This document shows positions 29,701 to 47,550 of a DNA stretch of 59,155 bases, in pieces. Source of the DNA: a virus (Duplodnaviria; Caudoviricetes); the IMG/VR virus record IMGVR_UViG_3300020468_000007, positions 1-59,155 of that record. One strand, 5' to 3'. The notes under the pieces were generated by a model, which saw nothing but the letters and a program-made list of their open reading frames with translations, made no database searches and had not been told where the DNA came from. Numbering within the stretch: position 1 is the stretch's first letter; every line of letters starts with the position of its first letter. The position numbers and the translations under genes were made by a program.

Positions 29701-30279
29701 TTGAAAAACACTGAACCCACAGAAAACACTATTAAGAAAGGCGGAAGACCGGCTGGTCTTACCAACCGCCAGAGAGAGTTTGCCAAACTTTATGTCGATG
29801 GCAGATACAGCAATGCTGAATGCGCTAGGAAGGCAGGATATGCTGCCGACAGTGCGAGAAATCATGCTGCTAAACTTCTTGACGGTAAATCTTTTCCAGA
29901 AGTTCCAGAACTTATCAAAGAACTTCGGGAAGCTAGAGAGCGAAAATATGGCGTGACCTTGGTCAACCAACTTAAACGCTTTGATGAGTTGTCCCATGCG
30001 GCGGAAGAAGCTGGTCAATTTTCTGCTGCTATCAATGCCGAAAAAATTCGTTCCAGTTTGGGTGGCTTGACTATTGATAGGCGAGAACAGAACCACGTTC
30101 ATCAACTCGACAACTTGTCTCGTGAAGATATTGTCGCTCGACTGAGCGCGATCAGGAAGAATTACCCACACGCTTTTGGTGACGATATGAAGAGGGTTGA
30201 AGATGCCAAAGACAGAACGATCACTGTGGACGTTATTGAAACAGAACCTACCAAAGAAAACGCACTTCGAGAGGATTGA
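29701..30279 (+). CDS. terS: Terminase small subunit
   Basis: LTNRQREFAKLYV...NAECARKAGYA...AAKLL HTH pattern; TTG start. Confidence 0.8.
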   Translation: MKNTEPTENTIKKGGRPAGLTNRQREFAKLYVDGRYSNAECARKAGYAADSARNHAAKLLDGKSFPEVPELIKELREARERKYGVTLVNQLKRFDELSHAAEEAGQFSAAINAEKIRSSLGGLTIDRREQNHVHQLDNLSREDIVARLSAIRKNYPHAFGDDMKRVEDAKDRTITVDVIETEPTKENALRED

Positions 30280-30622
30280 AAACCGCACTGGTGAAGGAAT
30301 GCCGGACGTATACCTATGCATGAATGGTGTGCCAGTGTGGCTGGAATTAAAAATAGTTAAAAATGGCAGGGTTAGCCTGTCAAAATCACAGATTGCGTGG
30401 CATTCCTCACATTTTAGATGTAAAGGCGTAAGTTTTTTCTTGCTGCACGACCCCTTGACCAGCGACCTATTTTTATTTGGCGCGGACAAAGCGATCGAGT
30501 TGCTAGGTTCGAGGATCGATGACCTGCGGCCTGCGGCCTTGTATATCGGTGATATGCGCGGCCTGATTGAGAGCCTGCGGCCTGCGGCCTGCGCCCTATG
30601 GTCTGATGCCATGAGTCGATGA
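30203..30622 (+). CDS. VRR-NUC / Holliday-junction-resolvase-like nuclease
   Basis: ERIEN..GEGMPDV...WLELK...SQIAWH. Confidence 0.75.
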   Translation: MPKTERSLWTLLKQNLPKKTHFERIENRTGEGMPDVYLCMNGVPVWLELKIVKNGRVSLSKSQIAWHSSHFRCKGVSFFLLHDPLTSDLFLFGADKAIELLGSRIDDLRPAALYIGDMRGLIESLRPAACALWSDAMSR

Positions 30623-30639
30623 CCTGCGGCCTGCGGCCT
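30516..30639 (+). repeat. CCTGCGG heptamer repeat cluster 1
   Basis: CCTGCGGCCTGCGGCCT at 30523, 30574, 30623; exact 24-bp repeat 30516-30539 = 30616-30639. Confidence 0.95.
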
Positions 30640-31536: not shown

Positions 31537-31602
31537 CCTGCGGCCTGCGGCCTTGTTCCTCTTTTTATATATACAACGGCCTGCGGCCTGCGGCCTTGTT
31601 CC
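31537..31602 (+). repeat. CCTGCGG heptamer repeat cluster 2
   Basis: Exact 23-bp repeat CCTGCGGCCTGCGGCCTTGTTCC at 31537-31559 and 31580-31602. Confidence 0.95.
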
Positions 31603-31612
31603 CCTGTATATA

Positions 31613-31654
31613 TAAAAAAAGAAAAGAGGATCGAGCACCGTGGCGCTCGATCCT
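31613..31654 (-). terminator. Intrinsic terminator
   Basis: Minus AGGATCGAGCGC-CACG-GTGCTCGATCCT then CTTTTCTTTTTTT. Confidence 0.8.
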
Positions 31655-32329: not shown

Positions 32330-32518
32330 TTACCCCCTTAAAAATTCATCTAGAAGAATGATAGAGCCAGTCATAACAGCACCAGCCCCAACGAATGCCA
32401 TCCAGCCATTGTCTACTTGCCACCAGCTAGTAATGAACAATGCGGTCAATACTATCAGCGAGGCATAGAACAGGCCGACAAGCCCGACAAACTTTATTCC
32501 TGTAACGATACTATTCAT
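32330..32518 (-). CDS. Small two-TM membrane protein (first gene after the ribozyme)
   Basis: 62 aa with two hydrophobic segments; AAGGGG RBS. Confidence 0.65.
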   Translation of the reverse strand: MNSIVTGIKFVGLVGLFYASLIVLTALFITSWWQVDNGWMAFVGAGAVMTGSIILLDEFLRG

Positions 32519-32540
32519 TTTAATCCCCTTCTATTTGATT

Positions 32541-32593
32541 TACCGTTTCGGCCTCTTGGCCTCATCAGCGACAGCACACACTGCCGGACGGTA
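32541..32593 (-). ncRNA. Type III hammerhead ribozyme
   Basis: Minus RNA UACCGUC/CGGCAG-UGUGUG-CUGUCG-CUGAUGA-GGCC-AAGA-GGCC-GAA-ACGGUA: full CUGAUGA and GAAA core, GUC cleavage triplet, stems I (6 bp), II (4 bp), III (6 bp) all pair; intergenic. Confidence 0.93.
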
Positions 32594-32610
32594 GGGGGCG
32601 GATGCCCCCT
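32593..32610 (-). other. GC hairpin immediately 5' of the ribozyme
   Basis: Minus AGGGGGC-AUCC-GCCCCCU, 5 nt after upstream stop, no U-tract. Confidence 0.75.
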
Positions 32611-32615
32611 TGTTT

Positions 32616-32819
32616 TTAATCCTCCTCTTCGTTCCAGACCGTCACCATTTTATATTGAAGATTTTCCAAGTCAGTTTGGATATCTTCGATATTGCCGGAT
32701 AAATCCTCACACCAGTGTCCACTATCTTGTAAGACATTCTCGATTATTTCCAATGCATGGTCTACCTTGTCATTGGCTAGTGCGACTTCGTGAAGGATGC
32801 TTTGTAATGTTCTTGTCAT
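32616..32819 (-). CDS. Hypothetical acidic early protein
   Basis: 67 aa; AAGGGG RBS. Confidence 0.65.
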   Translation of the reverse strand: MTRTLQSILHEVALANDKVDHALEIIENVLQDSGHWCEDLSGNIEDIQTDLENLQYKMVTVWNEEED

Positions 32820-32831
32820 TGTTTTGTCCCC

Positions 32832-33107
32832 TTATGCGACGTTAGAAATAACAGTCTTTCCAGACTTGATTGTGTACACCGTACCAGCTTCGAGCTTCAT
32901 ACGACGGACGTTGGACTTACCAGCCTCGAGCATTTCAGCAGCAATAGAGTAATCGATGAACGTGATCACGTTCGGCTGGTCATCGGTTAGCCGATCGTCG
33001 GCAATAACCTGACCGTATGCATGACGCAAGCTGCCATCGGCTTTTGTGAATGTAGCAGTGAACAAGCGACCGCCAAGCTGCTCGATGATTTGGTTTCTTA
33101 AAGTCAT
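32832..33107 (-). CDS. Hypothetical early protein (SH3/WYL-like beta barrel)
   Basis: FTATFTKADGSLR motif; first gene of the early island. Confidence 0.65.
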   Translation of the reverse strand: MTLRNQIIEQLGGRLFTATFTKADGSLRHAYGQVIADDRLTDDQPNVITFIDYSIAAEMLEAGKSNVRRMKLEAGTVYTIKSGKTVISNVA

Positions 33108-33140
33108 ATCTAATCCCCTTATATTTGATTTGATATGATT

Positions 33141-33178
33141 ATCTTAACTATATTTTTCATATAATCAAATAAAAAATG
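33141..33178 (-). promoter_or_regulatory. Candidate early promoter
   Basis: Minus TTGATT-N16-TAAGAT with T-rich upstream tract. Confidence 0.5.
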
Positions 33179-33310
33179 CATAAAAACCGAGTAAATCGTC
33201 GGTTTTTTGGGGTTACTGGCATCGATCGGCAGTCAGTTTTCGAGCAGCGCGACCCCCTACCCCCTATTTTTTTGGGATAGTCTATTGACATACGGTCGCA
33301 TTTTGCTGGG

Positions 33311-33345: not shown

Positions 33346-34836
33346 ATGGATGACACAGCGAACCTAGAACTGCTGCCAGAGGATGTCCTTAAAGAGATCC
33401 TGTTACTGGAGGAGCAGCAGAAGCGTCTTGAAACCAGAGACATAGCTCAAGATAAATTCATGGCTTACGCCAAACATGTGTATGACGGGTTTATAGAGGG
33501 GACCCATCATAGAATCATAGCCGAGAAGCTAGAGCGGATAGCCCGGGGTGACTTAAAAAGATTGATTGTCAATATGCCTCCCCGGCATTCCAAGTCAGAA
33601 TTTGCATCTTATCTAATGCCTAGCTGGTTCTTGGGCCGCAATCCAAAATTAAAAATCATTCAAGCTACCATGAACACCGAACTTGCTGTAAGATTTGGTC
33701 GAAAGGTCCGAGATTTGATTGCTGATCCTATTTATAAGGAGATCTTTCCAAACACGGACCTGAAACCGGACAGCCAAGCGGCAGGTCGTTGGGAGACCAG
33801 CGCTGGTGGGGAATATTTTGCAGCCGGGGTGGGCGCTGCAATGACTGGTCGTGGTGCTGATTTACTTATTATTGACGATCCGCACTCGGAGCAGGATGCA
33901 TTATCGCCTAGTGCGTATGACAATGCGTGGGAATGGTACACTTCTGGCCCTCGTCAGCGTCTTCAGCCGGGGGGAACCATCATTATTGTGCAGACTAGGT
34001 GGTCCAAGAAGGATATTACGGGCCGTTTACTGCAAGCACAGCAGAAAGATTTGATGGCTGACCAGTGGGATGTGGTGGAATTCCCTGCAATTATGCCTTC
34101 GGGGGAACCATTATGGCCTGAATTCTGGAAAAAAGACGAGCTTTTGAAGGTAAAGGCTTCACTTTCGGTGGGAAAGTGGAATGCTCAGTGGCAACAGAAC
34201 CCCACATCAGAAGAAACCGCTATGGTCAAGCGGGATTGGTGGAAAGTCTGGGAAGAAGATGACATTCCTGACTTAGATTATGTAATTCAGTCCTATGATA
34301 CGGCGTACAGTAAGAAAGAAACTGCCGATTACTCTGCTATTACAACGTGGGGTGTGTTTCAGCCCTACGGAAACGGGGATCAGCACCTGATATTGATGGA
34401 TGCGAAGAAGGGGCGGTGGAATTTCCCAGAGTTAAAGTCTATTGCACAGGAAGAATACGAATACTGGGAGCCGGAGTTGATGTTAATCGAGGCGAAAGCT
34501 TCTGGTACACCTTTGGCGGACGAAATGAGGTTACTGAACCTCCCTGTCGCTACCTTTAGCCCCGGTCGAAAACGTGGTGGGGGAGGTATGGACAAAACAA
34601 CTCGTATGCATATAGTCTCTCCTATATTCGAGTCGGGAAAAGTATGGTATCCTGAAGGCGAAAAGTTTGCAGAAGAAGTTATTGAAGAGATTGCTTCATT
34701 CCCCAATGGCGATCACGATGACTTTTGTGATAGCATGACGATGGCCTTGATGAGATTTCGTCAGGGTGGCTTTGTTAGTTTAGCAGGGGAAGAATTTGAA
34801 GATGATCCACCCCGCGTAGCAAGAGAGTATTACTGA
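33346..34836 (+). CDS. terL: Terminase large subunit
   Basis: MPPRHSKS Walker A, LLIIDDP Walker B, QTRW, YDTA, IEAKASG, HDDFCDS nuclease motif. Confidence 0.96.
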   Translation: MDDTANLELLPEDVLKEILLLEEQQKRLETRDIAQDKFMAYAKHVYDGFIEGTHHRIIAEKLERIARGDLKRLIVNMPPRHSKSEFASYLMPSWFLGRNPKLKIIQATMNTELAVRFGRKVRDLIADPIYKEIFPNTDLKPDSQAAGRWETSAGGEYFAAGVGAAMTGRGADLLIIDDPHSEQDALSPSAYDNAWEWYTSGPRQRLQPGGTIIIVQTRWSKKDITGRLLQAQQKDLMADQWDVVEFPAIMPSGEPLWPEFWKKDELLKVKASLSVGKWNAQWQQNPTSEETAMVKRDWWKVWEEDDIPDLDYVIQSYDTAYSKKETADYSAITTWGVFQPYGNGDQHLILMDAKKGRWNFPELKSIAQEEYEYWEPELMLIEAKASGTPLADEMRLLNLPVATFSPGRKRGGGGMDKTTRMHIVSPIFESGKVWYPEGEKFAEEVIEEIASFPNGDHDDFCDSMTMALMRFRQGGFVSLAGEEFEDDPPRVAREYY

Positions 34837-46061: not shown

Positions 46062-46973
46062 ATGGCTATTTCTCGCGCACAACTCGCCAAAGAACTAGAG
46101 CCCGGTCTAAACGCTCTCTTTGGAATGGAATATGACCGATACGAAGGTCAGCATGCTGAAATCTTTGACACCGAGTCTTCTGACCGGGCGTTTGAAGAAG
46201 AGGTGATGTTGTCAGGTTTCGGTGCCGCACCTGTCAAGGGTGAGGGCACAGGTGTCACTTTTGATGATGCCAACGAAGCTTACACTGCTCGTTACAACCA
46301 CGAGACAGTGGCAATGGCCTTCTCAATCACTGAAGAAGCAGTTGAGGACAATCTCTATGATCGTCTTGCTTCTCGGTACACTCGTGCCCTTGCTCGTTCA
46401 ATGGCACACACAAAGCAGGTTAAAGCTGCCGCAGTTCTTAACAATGCATTCTCCGCTGGCGCATTTGCTGGTGGTGACGGTGTTGCTCTCTGCGCCACTA
46501 ACCACCCGCTAACAAGCGGCGGCACATTCGCTAACGAGCCAGCAACTGCTGCTGACCTGAATGAGACTTCTCTTGAAGACTCACTTATCAGCATCGCTGG
46601 TTTCACTGACGAGCGCGGTTTGATCATTGCCCTTAAAGGCATGAAGCTTATCGTTCCTCGCCAGCTTCAGTTTGTTGCCGAGCGTCTTATGGTATCAAAC
46701 CTTCGGGTAGGTACAGCAGACAACGACACAAACGCATTGCGCTCAATGGGCATGCTTCCAGACGGTTATGTAGTCAACGACTTCCTAACTGATACAGACG
46801 CATTCTTCATTAAGACTGATGCACCAAATGGCTTCAAGCACTTTGAGCGTTTGGCTCTGTCAACTGCAATGGACCCAGATTTCGACACTGGCAACATGCG
46901 GTACAAAGCTCGTGAGCGTTACAGCTTCGGCTTTTCAGACCCTCGCGCAGTGTTCGGTTCACCGGGCGCATAA
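46062..46973 (+). CDS. Major capsid protein (HK97 fold, Mu gpT-like)
   Basis: MAISRAQLAKELEPGLNALFG...ITEEAVEDNLY...DFDTGNMRYKARERYSFG. Confidence 0.9.
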   Translation: MAISRAQLAKELEPGLNALFGMEYDRYEGQHAEIFDTESSDRAFEEEVMLSGFGAAPVKGEGTGVTFDDANEAYTARYNHETVAMAFSITEEAVEDNLYDRLASRYTRALARSMAHTKQVKAAAVLNNAFSAGAFAGGDGVALCATNHPLTSGGTFANEPATAADLNETSLEDSLISIAGFTDERGLIIALKGMKLIVPRQLQFVAERLMVSNLRVGTADNDTNALRSMGMLPDGYVVNDFLTDTDAFFIKTDAPNGFKHFERLALSTAMDPDFDTGNMRYKARERYSFGFSDPRAVFGSPGA

Positions 46974-47038: not shown

Positions 47039-47082
47039 TCCTGACAACTGCATGGTGCGGTTGACACTAGCCACGACAGGAG
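47039..47082 (+). promoter_or_regulatory. Candidate structured 5' leader sequestering the RBS
   Basis: TCCTG...CAGGA outer pairing includes the AGGAG SD; inner 8-bp hairpin CAACTGCA-TGG-TGCGGTTG. Confidence 0.45.
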
Positions 47083-47088
47083 ACTTAA

Positions 47089-47550
47089 ATGGCTACTACC
47101 ACTTTCTCCGGTCCTATTAAGGCCGGAACTATCAAGAACACAACAGGCACGACTCTAGGCTCAAACATCGCTAACGTCGGTCAGGTTGTTATGGCTCAGA
47201 CATTTTCAGCAGACTTATCAGGCGGTGCTCTAGCTGCTCAAGTCACTGACGTTGTTATCCCTGCAAACTCTCAGATTATTGACTGTGTGATTGACGTCAT
47301 TACAGCAGCTAACACTTCTACCAATCTTAGTGTCGGTGACACTGTAGGTGGCGCAGCTACAATTCTGAACACATTTGCAAGCGGAACAACTGCTGGTCGT
47401 AAGTACCCGACAACTCAGGCTGGTGCTGCATTAGCTTGGCAGGATACTGGTACAGCAGACATTCGTTTGACTGTGACTGCTTCTGCCGCAACAAACGCAG
47501 GTCTTGTTCGTTTTACAATTCTGTACCAGCAAAATAACAACCTTGCTTAA
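47089..47550 (+). CDS. Putative capsid-associated/decoration protein
   Basis: MATTTFSGPIKAG...IPANSQII; follows MCP. Confidence 0.6.
   Translation: MATTTFSGPIKAGTIKNTTGTTLGSNIANVGQVVMAQTFSADLSGGALAAQVTDVVIPANSQIIDCVIDVITAANTSTNLSVGDTVGGAATILNTFASGTTAGRKYPTTQAGAALAWQDTGTADIRLTVTASAATNAGLVRFTILYQQNNNLA

What the first reader, a model, noticed from the sequence alone, without database searches (positions are those of the whole stretch)
32516..32618. Hairpin + ribozyme + duplicated leader: a self-contained mRNA-processing cassette
Seen, in transcript order: stop of the 67-aa gene, a 7-bp GC hairpin without U-tract (32593-32610), the hammerhead, then AAATCAAATAGAAGGGGATTAAAATG into a two-TM protein gene. 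That leader nearly duplicates the leader of the first operon gene, AAATCAAATATAAGGGGATTAGATATG (about 33105-33131). Inference: cleavage would give an upstream mRNA with a hairpin-protected 3' end and a downstream mRNA with a structured 5'-OH end and its own copy of the leader. This would be a protein-free analogue of RNase III processing of T7 early mRNA (5'-OH ends are poor substrates for 5'-monophosphate-stimulated RNase E). It is my best candidate for an undescribed system: ribozyme-punctuated early operons, possibly also serving as a modular boundary for gene swapping.
Basis: partly seen in the sequence, partly recalled or inferred. Interest (0 to 1): 0.85.

Follow-up and report, generated by a model that had tools for sequence, protein, structure and literature searches.

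The report
Hairpin-capped hammerhead cassette in phage operon
A genuine self-cleaving hammerhead RNA sits between two small early genes of a marine phage, preceded by a tight hairpin that would be left at the end of the upstream message; ribozymes between phage genes are already known, but the constant hairpin partner appears to be a new detail.

Summary
On the minus strand the order is: stop codon (32618-32616), a 7-bp GC hairpin (32610-32593), a type III hammerhead (32593-32541, cut after C32587), a 22-nt leader, and the ATG (32518-32516).

The hammerhead scores 42.3 bits against Rfam RF00008, below the 48.5-bit cut-off. Its full core is present, and 10 of its 16 pairs show compensatory changes across 17 variants.

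It occurs in 16 of 80 relatives found by the terminase gene, always after gene 1-3 of the early operon, next to different genes.

Among type III hammerheads in viral contigs, 97 of 115 have a hairpin of 5 bp or more abutting stem III, against 31 of 115 in a control window. Type I hammerheads show no such enrichment (16 of 101, control 19). Their own closed stem III sits just before the cut. So the upstream cleavage product ends in a stable hairpin in either topology.

Best reading (0.6): the ribozyme splits the early mRNA between genes and the hairpin caps the new 3' end. The general idea dates from 2011 (PMC3088659). The duplicated leader is specific to this lineage (3 of 68 loci). Cleavage was not shown.

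The parts
33141..33168 (-). Putative sigma-70-type promoter of the first early transcription unit: TTGATT (33168-33163), 16-nt spacer, TAAGAT (33146-33141). The predicted start is near 33131-33135.
   Evidence: Read by eye. The consensus scan did not list it. Relatives carry TATAAT or GATAAT about 30-35 nt before the ATG of gene 1. This is inference only.
33111..33130 (-). Leader of gene 1, a near copy (19 of 20 bases) of the leader that follows the hammerhead.
   Evidence: 2 matches in the window, 0 of 100 shuffles reach 2; such a pair exists in only 3 of 68 related loci.
32832..33107 (-). Gene 1, 91 aa. It is the conserved first early gene (phrog_2267, function unknown) with a weak sub-threshold WYL_2 match.
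32616..32819 (-). Gene 2, 67 aa, acidic, no family match. Its stop codon TAA is at 32618-32616.
32593..32610 (-). GC hairpin AGGGGGC-AUCC-GCCCCCU with no U-tract. It directly abuts the 5' strand of stem III, sharing U32593.
   Evidence: -14.1 kcal/mol on its own. Relatives keep the stem with loops AUCC, GAAA, UUCG and others, and one compensatory GGCGC/GCGCC form.
32541..32593 (-). Type III hammerhead ribozyme. The predicted cut is after C32587, between 32587 and 32586.
   Evidence: RF00008 at 42.3 bits, E 1.2e-7 on 1 kb; covariation; own model R1 at 81.2 bits; the ribozyme-competent fold lies 1.9 kcal/mol above the minimum free energy fold.
32519..32540 (-). A-rich, unpaired 22-nt leader with Shine-Dalgarno AAGGGGA (32530-32524).
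   Evidence: unpaired in both the minimum-energy and centroid folds.
32330..32518 (-). Gene 3, 62 aa, two hydrophobic stretches, no family match. It is the first gene on the downstream cleavage product.
31627..31654 (-). Strong intrinsic terminator (12-bp stem plus U-run) that ends the transcription unit containing the hammerhead.

Best explanation
The element is an intercistronic self-cleavage cassette in the first early transcription unit of a marine tailed phage. The unit runs from a promoter near 33141-33168 to the terminator at 31654-31627, on the minus strand.

As host RNA polymerase transcribes through, the type III hammerhead folds and cuts after C32587.
- The upstream RNA (genes 1-2) then ends in the GC hairpin plus a 7-nt tail carrying a 2',3'-cyclic phosphate.
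- The downstream RNA (gene 3 to the terminator) starts with a 5'-OH, the rest of the ribozyme, and a free 22-nt Shine-Dalgarno leader.

In effect the cut makes a terminator-like, hairpin-capped 3' end without stopping transcription. The two halves of the operon can then have separate lifetimes.

Shown here: the ribozyme's sequence and covariation, the cassette's architecture, and its recurrence.
Inferred: cleavage in vivo, protection of the 3' end from 3'-5' exonucleases, and any effect on the downstream genes.
For: 1. All core nucleotides, the GUC cut site and three helices are present. In 17 distinct variants, 97.1% of cells pair and 10 of 16 pairs show changes on both sides. 0 of 500 shuffles reach these values, and slid controls give 0-1 such pairs.
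2. The hammerhead is present in 16 of 80 terminase-linked loci, and in 12 of the 52 loci with more than 2.5 kb upstream. It always lies 527-1157 nt from the terminase gene, after gene 1, 2 or 3.
3. A pattern search that did not constrain the hairpin gave 121 unique contexts, of which 115 pass the stem tests. 97 of 115 have a perfect hairpin of 5 bp or more ending within 4 nt of stem III, 67 of them with no gap. The control window gives 31 of 115, and 18% of shuffles reach this.
4. These hairpins have 45 different inner-stem sequences, a median of 7 bp and -12.9 kcal/mol, and 39 of 97 have UUCG or GNRA loops.
5. The spacing is stereotyped: median 25 nt from the stop codon to the ribozyme and 23 nt from the ribozyme to the start codon.
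6. Type I hammerheads do not have an abutting hairpin: 4 of 17, and 16 of 101 against a control of 19 of 101. They begin at or over the upstream stop codon and have a stable closed stem III (median -9.4 kcal/mol) just before the cut.
7. In 4 of 7 contigs that hold both types, the type I stem III is the same hairpin motif as the one abutting the type III ribozyme. I compared these by eye on the output.
8. Relatives use the same GGGGC...GCCCC hairpin in two other ways: with a U-run as a terminator, or bare just before a Shine-Dalgarno site.
9. The leader is unpaired in the predicted folds.
Against: - No cleavage data. The RNA libraries were available only as contigs. Their breaks near the element are explained by strain branching, and one record (X3 record 21, 32540-32667) spans the cut site.
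- The Rfam score is below the curated cut-off.
- The minimum-energy fold does not form stem III, and the z-score is only -1.93.
- The cassette is dispensable. 40 of 52 well-covered relatives lack it, and L009 has the same two genes joined without it.
- L012 and L013 carry a core A9-to-C change.
- In prokaryote genome contigs the hairpin rule is weaker: 9 of 25 against a control of 4.
- The 115 and 101 contexts come from related phages and are not independent.
- A 5'-OH can destabilise RNA where RNase J is present (the glmS precedent, recalled), so the sign of the effect on the downstream genes is unknown.
Confidence: 0.6

Rival explanations
1. The hairpin is a folding insulator or ribosome spacer. 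Its job is to keep upstream coding RNA and the terminating ribosome away from the ribozyme, not to protect a 3' end. The biological point of cleavage would then be something else, for example lowering expression of the downstream genes through the 5'-OH end.
For: - The stop codon lies only 5-6 nt before the hairpin in this family.
- The zero-gap abutment (67 of 97) would also allow stacking on the short stem III.
- Synthetic ribozyme insulators such as RiboJ also pair a hammerhead with a hairpin (listing and abstract of PMC6206723).
Against: - Type I hammerheads of the same kind of phage work with no spacer at all. Their abutting hairpins are at background level (16 of 101, control 19), and in 28 of 75 cases the upstream stop codon lies inside stem I.
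- The same hairpins occur without any ribozyme, as terminators and as bare intercistronic stems.
Confidence: 0.15
2. The roughly 90-nt hairpin-hammerhead unit is mainly a selfish or mobile insertion, or a recombination hotspot. It spreads between phage genomes and is tolerated between genes, with little benefit to the phage.
For: - The distribution is patchy: 12 of 52.
- It is a discrete indel between the same gene pair, L004 against L009, bounded by short AAGG repeats.
- The same unit sits next to 61 upstream and 67 downstream protein clusters.
- Contigs from single samples share the unit but diverge on both sides of it (loose ends).
Against: - It is always in the sense orientation, with fixed spacing to the stop and start codons.
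- The core is kept intact with compensatory changes, which points to selection for cleavage.
- It has no terminal repeats and no associated mobility gene.
- In this family it is confined to the first three gene junctions of the early operon.
Confidence: 0.15
3. The ribozyme is regulated rather than constitutive, and times the switch between the first early genes and the later ones.
For: Perreault et al. 2011 raise regulated cleavage for phage hammerheads. The natural A9-to-C variant might be a slower form.
Against: The ribozyme is minimal at 53 nt, with 4-6 nt loops and no extra domain that could sense anything.
Confidence: 0.05

Closest known systems
Type III hammerhead ribozyme (Rfam RF00008)
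   Same: The core CUGAUGA...GAAA, the GUC cut site, closed stems I and II, and an open stem III.
   Different: It scores below the curated Rfam cut-off (42.3 against 48.5 bits). The stems and loops are short. A constant extra hairpin abuts stem III, and that hairpin is not part of the family model.
Hammerheads clustered between genes of prophages and phages (Perreault et al. 2011, PMC3088659; passages read)
   Same: They lie between co-directional small phage genes of changing identity. The proposed role is to process long phage transcripts into gene-length mRNAs. Other viral records here hold 2-4 such ribozymes within about 1-4 kb.
   Different: This window has a single ribozyme. The words hairpin, terminator and coaxial turned up no mention of an abutting upstream hairpin in that paper's main text. 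Its supplements could not be read.
HHphage of haloviruses HF1 and HF2 (Perreault et al. 2011)
   Same: [quoted passage not shown] A mapped transcript 5' end falls within 3 nt of the cut site.
   Different: That host is an archaeon, the ribozyme is a core variant that needs high salt, and it precedes the first ORF of the transcript rather than sitting between ORFs.
RNase III processing sites of phage T7 early mRNA
   Same: The early polycistronic RNA is cut between genes, leaving a stem at the 3' end of the upstream message.
   Different: That cut is made by a host protein on a long double-stranded stem and leaves 5'-phosphate and 3'-OH ends. Here the cut is RNA-catalysed, next to a 7-bp hairpin, and would leave 5'-OH and 2',3'-cyclic phosphate ends.
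RiboJ synthetic insulator (PMC6206723, search listing and abstract only; design details recalled)
   Same: A hammerhead combined with a hairpin gives the downstream gene a defined 5' end.
   Different: It is engineered, and its hairpin lies downstream of the ribozyme. Here the hairpin is upstream and leaves with the upstream product.

Membership tests
Hammerhead ribozyme, type III (RF00008) | Conserved core C3 U4 G5 A6 N7 G8 A9 and G12 A13 A14 | tested here: met
   CUGAUGA at 32568-32562 and GAAA at 32549-32546. These columns are invariant in 17 variants, apart from N7.
Hammerhead ribozyme, type III (RF00008) | A15.1-U16.1 pair and a cut site N-U-H | tested here: met
   A32546 pairs with U32588, and the cut-site triplet is GUC with C17 at 32587.
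Hammerhead ribozyme, type III (RF00008) | Three helices supported by covariation, with stems I and II closed and stem III open | tested here: met
   10 of 16 pairs have changes on both sides and 97.1% of cells pair. The rows were picked by a scan that required at least 3 pairs per stem, so the percentage paired is somewhat favoured by that choice.
Hammerhead ribozyme, type III (RF00008) | Score at or above Rfam's gathering threshold | tested here: not met
   42.3 bits against 48.5. The shortfall comes from the shorter stem II loop and the different loops, not from the core.
Hammerhead ribozyme, type III (RF00008) | Loop I-loop II tertiary contact needed for activity at low Mg2+ | tested here: inconclusive
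   The loops are biased: loop 1 is mostly GUGU or GAGU and loop 2 mostly AAAA or AAGA. No contact was modelled.
Hammerhead ribozyme, type III (RF00008) | Self-cleavage | not testable with these tools
   Only contigs of RNA libraries were available.
Phage intercistronic hammerheads (Perreault 2011) | Lies between co-directional genes of a phage transcript | tested here: met
Phage intercistronic hammerheads (Perreault 2011) | Several ribozymes flank single genes or short gene blocks | tested here: not met
   There is one match in the 59,155-base record. Other viral records hold 2-4.
Intrinsic (Rho-independent) terminator | GC hairpin followed by a U-run | tested here: not met
   The hairpin is followed by UACCGUCC. 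Relatives do have the same hairpin with a U-run elsewhere.
RNase III processing site (T7 early type) | Long double-stranded stem of about two helical turns | tested here: not met
   The stem is 7 bp. The family's requirement is recalled, not checked.

The most novel reading that the evidence does not exclude
Phage hammerhead cassettes may follow one design rule: whatever the ribozyme topology, the upstream cleavage product ends in a stable hairpin with a tail of at most about 10 nt and a 2',3'-cyclic phosphate. In type I that hairpin is the closed stem III. In type III it is an added, abutting hairpin, often the same phage-specific motif.

The ribozyme would then be a non-terminating terminator. 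It writes terminator-like, exonuclease- and poly(A)-resistant 3' ends inside an operon while RNA polymerase carries on. That would give phages host-nuclease-independent control over the relative lifetimes of early messages.
Probability: 0.4. Interest if true: 0.65.

Novelty: new variant of a known kind. Interest (0 to 1): 0.5.

Why it matters
The biological role of most bacterial and phage self-cleaving ribozymes is still open (2019 review). This element is an ordinary hammerhead in a known kind of place.

The comparative pattern found here is what adds something: an abutting hairpin at type III forms, none at type I forms, and shared hairpin motifs between the two. That turns a vague idea (mRNA processing) into a specific, testable one: the 3' end of the upstream product is what is being built.

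Nature also supplies matched controls. L004 and L009 have the same gene pair with and without the cassette, and L012/L013 carry a core variant.

If the reading is right, the cassette could also serve as a compact natural part for operon engineering.

Tried and rejected
RNA evidence. One search listed 10 RNA-library runs, and I laid X1-X4. All are contigs, so they give no ends, strand or expression level. Contig breaks at 32568-32599 coincide with higher depth over the shared ribozyme and with loose ends that carry other flanking genes. That is strain branching in the assembly, not cleavage. One record spans the cut site. No verdict on cleavage or expression.

Other ribozyme classes at the same junction. 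An Rfam gathering search of 17 of the 64 hammerhead-less terminase loci (143 kb) found nothing. That search is insensitive, because the window's own hammerhead is also below the gathering score.

Cultured phages.
- blastn of the operon found no match.
- blastn of the cassette and of another hammerhead against 50,697 phage records found no match.
- Model R1 found nothing in the four nearest deposited relatives: HTVC027P, 023Pt_psg01, DSL-LC04 and HTVC023P, whose terminases are 54-62% identical.

Prokaryote genome contigs. 91 of 116 unique pattern matches failed the stem test and are chance matches. Of the 25 kept, 9 had the hairpin, against a control of 4. This is a weaker replication.

Antisense terminator. 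On the plus strand the hairpin is followed by a T-rich run. Relatives lack that run, so I rejected this reading.

Duplicated leader as part of the cassette. Rejected: 3 of 68 loci.

Family searches. The small flanking proteins gave no informative family matches.

Literature. Searches found no description of a hairpin abutting phage hammerheads. Felletti et al. 2017 (PMC5785228) and Jimenez et al. 2011 are not held (for the first). The supplements of Perreault 2011, which include alignments and gene maps, are closed. Any of these may bear on the novelty claim.

The genome search with RF02276 failed, and I replaced it with my own scans. My type II scan gave one hit, which I judged false.

Full report
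WHAT THE WINDOW IS

The window is a complete IMG/VR virus record of 59,155 bases, 45% G+C.
- It encodes a terminase (33346-34836), a portal protein, a Mu-like capsid protein, virion proteins and a tail fibre on the plus strand.
- A block on the minus strand holds DNA polymerase, helicases and primase.
- None of the 24 ORFs scanned matched a phage RNA polymerase. Most ORFs were not scanned.
- The nearest deposited phages are Pelagibacter phages HTVC027P and HTVC023P and two uncultured phages, with terminases 54-62% identical.
- At least 597 IMG/VR stretches encode a terminase relative. The best 80 are 83-100% identical.

THE OBSERVATION

- TAA of a 67-aa ORF at 32618-32616.
- A 7-bp hairpin at 32610-32593 with no U-run after it.
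- A 53-nt type III hammerhead at 32593-32541 with the full core (CUGAUGA, GAAA), a GUC cut site (C17 = 32587), a 6-bp stem I, a 4-bp stem II and a 5-6-bp open stem III.
- A 22-nt unpaired leader with AAGGGGA.
- The ATG of a 62-aa ORF at 32518-32516.

Rfam's type III model matches end to end at 42.3 bits. That is under the curated 48.5 bits, with E = 7.1e-6 for the whole window. It is the only hammerhead in the record.

The leader word occurs twice. The other copy is in front of gene 1, at 33111-33130.

The ribozyme-competent secondary structure lies 1.9 kcal/mol above the predicted minimum. The minimum itself does not form stem III, and the whole stretch has a modest z-score of -1.93.

IS THE RIBOZYME REAL?

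Yes. My own scan and a calibrated covariance model built from 17 distinct variants found it in 16 of the 80 terminase-linked loci, plus 7 further loci among those found by an exact-pattern search.

On the 17 variants:
- 97.1% of cells pair.
- 10 of 16 pairs carry changes on both sides. Stem II, for example, appears as GGCC/GGCC, GAUC/GAUC, GUCC/GGAC and GACC/GGUC.
- 0 of 500 shuffles reach these values, and slid registers give 0-1 such pairs.

The rows came from a scan that required at least 3 pairs per stem, so the percentage paired is somewhat favoured by that selection. The compensatory changes are not.

Two loci with the same sequence (L012, L013) have C in place of core A9. From what I recall of hammerhead mutagenesis, this should weaken the ribozyme.

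WHERE IT SITS

Of the 52 loci with more than 2.5 kb upstream of the terminase gene, 12 have the ribozyme. It always lies 527-1157 nt from the terminase start, after the first, second or third gene of the divergently transcribed early unit.

In the window that unit runs from a promoter-like site I read by eye near 33141-33168 to a strong terminator at 31654-31627.

The genes on either side differ between loci. L004 and L009 have the same two genes with and without the roughly 90-nt hairpin-ribozyme-spacer unit. The difference is bounded by short AAGG repeats. So the cassette is discrete and dispensable.

THE HAIRPIN

In this family the stem is nearly always GGGGC/GCCCC, with loops AUCC, GAAA, UUCG or longer. 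One form, GGCGC/GCGCC, is compensatory.

Relatives without the ribozyme use the same hairpin in two other ways. With a U-run it is a terminator. Bare, it sits directly before a Shine-Dalgarno site.

To test the association without bias, I searched IMG/VR for the ribozyme alone, fixing only the core and three stem III pairs.
- Of 121 unique contexts, 115 pass the stem tests.
- 97 of 115 have a perfect hairpin of 5 bp or more ending within 4 nt of stem III, and 67 of those have no gap.
- A window 35 nt further upstream gives 31 of 115, and 18% of shuffles reach this.
- The hairpins have 45 different inner-stem sequences, a median of 7 bp and -12.9 kcal/mol.
- Spacing is stereotyped: median 25 nt from stop codon to ribozyme and 23 nt from ribozyme to start codon.
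- The flanking proteins are small and fall into 61 upstream and 67 downstream clusters.
- Five other viral records hold 2-4 such ribozymes within about 1-4 kb.

In prokaryote genome contigs most pattern matches are chance. Among the 25 that pass, 9 have the hairpin, against a control of 4. This replication is weaker.

WHAT THE HAIRPIN IS FOR

Two readings compete. Either it caps the 3' end of the upstream product, or it shields the ribozyme from upstream RNA and ribosomes. Type I hammerheads separate the two readings. In type I the cut follows a closed stem III, so the upstream product already ends in a hairpin, but any need for shielding would be the same.
- In the loci already fetched, 4 of 17 type I ribozymes have an abutting upstream hairpin.
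- In a larger type I family, 16 of 101 do, against 19 of 101 in the control window.
- These type I ribozymes begin at or over the upstream stop codon. In 28 of 75 cases the TAA lies inside stem I.
- Their stem III is a stable hairpin, median -9.4 and down to -20 kcal/mol.
- In 4 of 7 contigs holding both types (L187, L199, L113, L092), the type I stem III is the same motif as the hairpin abutting the type III ribozyme. I compared these by eye.

The common outcome is an upstream product that ends in a stable hairpin with a tail of 1-10 nt. This favours the 3'-cap reading.

From established knowledge (recalled, not checked here):
- 3'-5' exonucleases need a single-stranded 3' tail of roughly 7-10 nt.
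- Poly(A) polymerase needs a 3'-OH, which a cyclic phosphate denies.

The contexts are related to one another, so these counts are not independent events.

THE LEADER

The leader is unpaired before and after cleavage, so translation of gene 3 should not depend on the cut.

Its near-identity to the leader of gene 1 is seen only in the window, L002 and L003 (3 of 68 loci). Elsewhere the leaders are only generally alike, being A/C-rich followed by a Shine-Dalgarno site.

In type I cassettes the downstream RNA starts with about 6 unstructured nucleotides. A structured 5' end is therefore not a conserved output. Whether a 5'-OH stabilises or destabilises the downstream RNA depends on the host's nucleases and is unknown.

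WHAT IS KNOWN

Perreault et al. 2011 (PMC3088659, passages) report:
- hundreds of bacterial hammerheads near prophage genes;
- several ribozymes flanking single genes of changing identity;
- cleavage of about 2-kb polycistronic RNAs in vitro;
- the proposal that long phage transcripts are processed into gene-length mRNAs.

The 2019 review (PMC6765202) says that different stabilities or translation efficiencies have been suggested but still need work.

So ribozyme-cut phage operons are a known kind. The seven literature searches listed under Tried and rejected found no statement of the hairpin rule or of the type I/type III equivalence. Three likely sources could not be read.

VERDICT

The cassette anatomy is confirmed. 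It extends to a regularity across phage hammerheads that gives the 3'-cap mechanism comparative support. Cleavage and its effects remain untested.

Noticed in passing
window 30523-30634 and 31537-31591, minus strand: Runs of the heptad GGCCGCA (word GCAGGCCGCAGG, 6 matches, 0 of 100 shuffles reach 6) lie just after the two strong terminators (31654-31627 and 30696-30666) and before the next promoter-like sites. Related loci have similar GCAGGTCGCAGG runs at the same places. They could be operator or iteron-like sites.
   Followed up: partly
window 47039-47091, plus strand: A Mu-gpT-DE RNA (RF03012, 68.3 bits, above the cut-off) lies just downstream of the Mu-like major capsid gene (46062-46973). 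It ends in the ATG of the next ORF.
   Followed up: partly
window 29701-30622, plus strand: A plus-strand island sits inside the minus-strand early and replication block. ORF 29701-30279 matches the small terminase subunit (PF03592, 35.4 bits). The overlapping ORF 30197-30622 has a PD-(D/E)XK-like GMPDV...ELK motif seen by eye, with no Pfam match. The 410-aa minus-strand ORF over the same region looks spurious.
   Followed up: partly
IMG/VR loci L324 onward; also L199, L113, L168: In a large family of type I hammerheads with stem I GGUUAA/UUAACC, the stop codon of the upstream ORF is often the TAA inside stem I (28 of 75). The ribosome would therefore terminate within the ribozyme.
   Followed up: partly
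virus records G001-G005: Other viral records of 44-64 kb (three of them at least 99% complete, two fragments) carry 2-4 type III hammerheads within about 1-4 kb on one strand. Some of the same contigs also hold type I hammerheads. These are truly ribozyme-punctuated operons.
   Followed up: partly
L012 699-751 and L013 4037-4089, minus strand: A natural hammerhead variant has core A9 replaced by C, in an otherwise intact cassette with the hairpin and leader kept.
   Followed up: no
window 33182-33207, minus strand: A weak AU-rich stem followed by a U-run lies upstream of the putative early promoter, in the divergent region between the terminase gene and gene 1.
   Followed up: no
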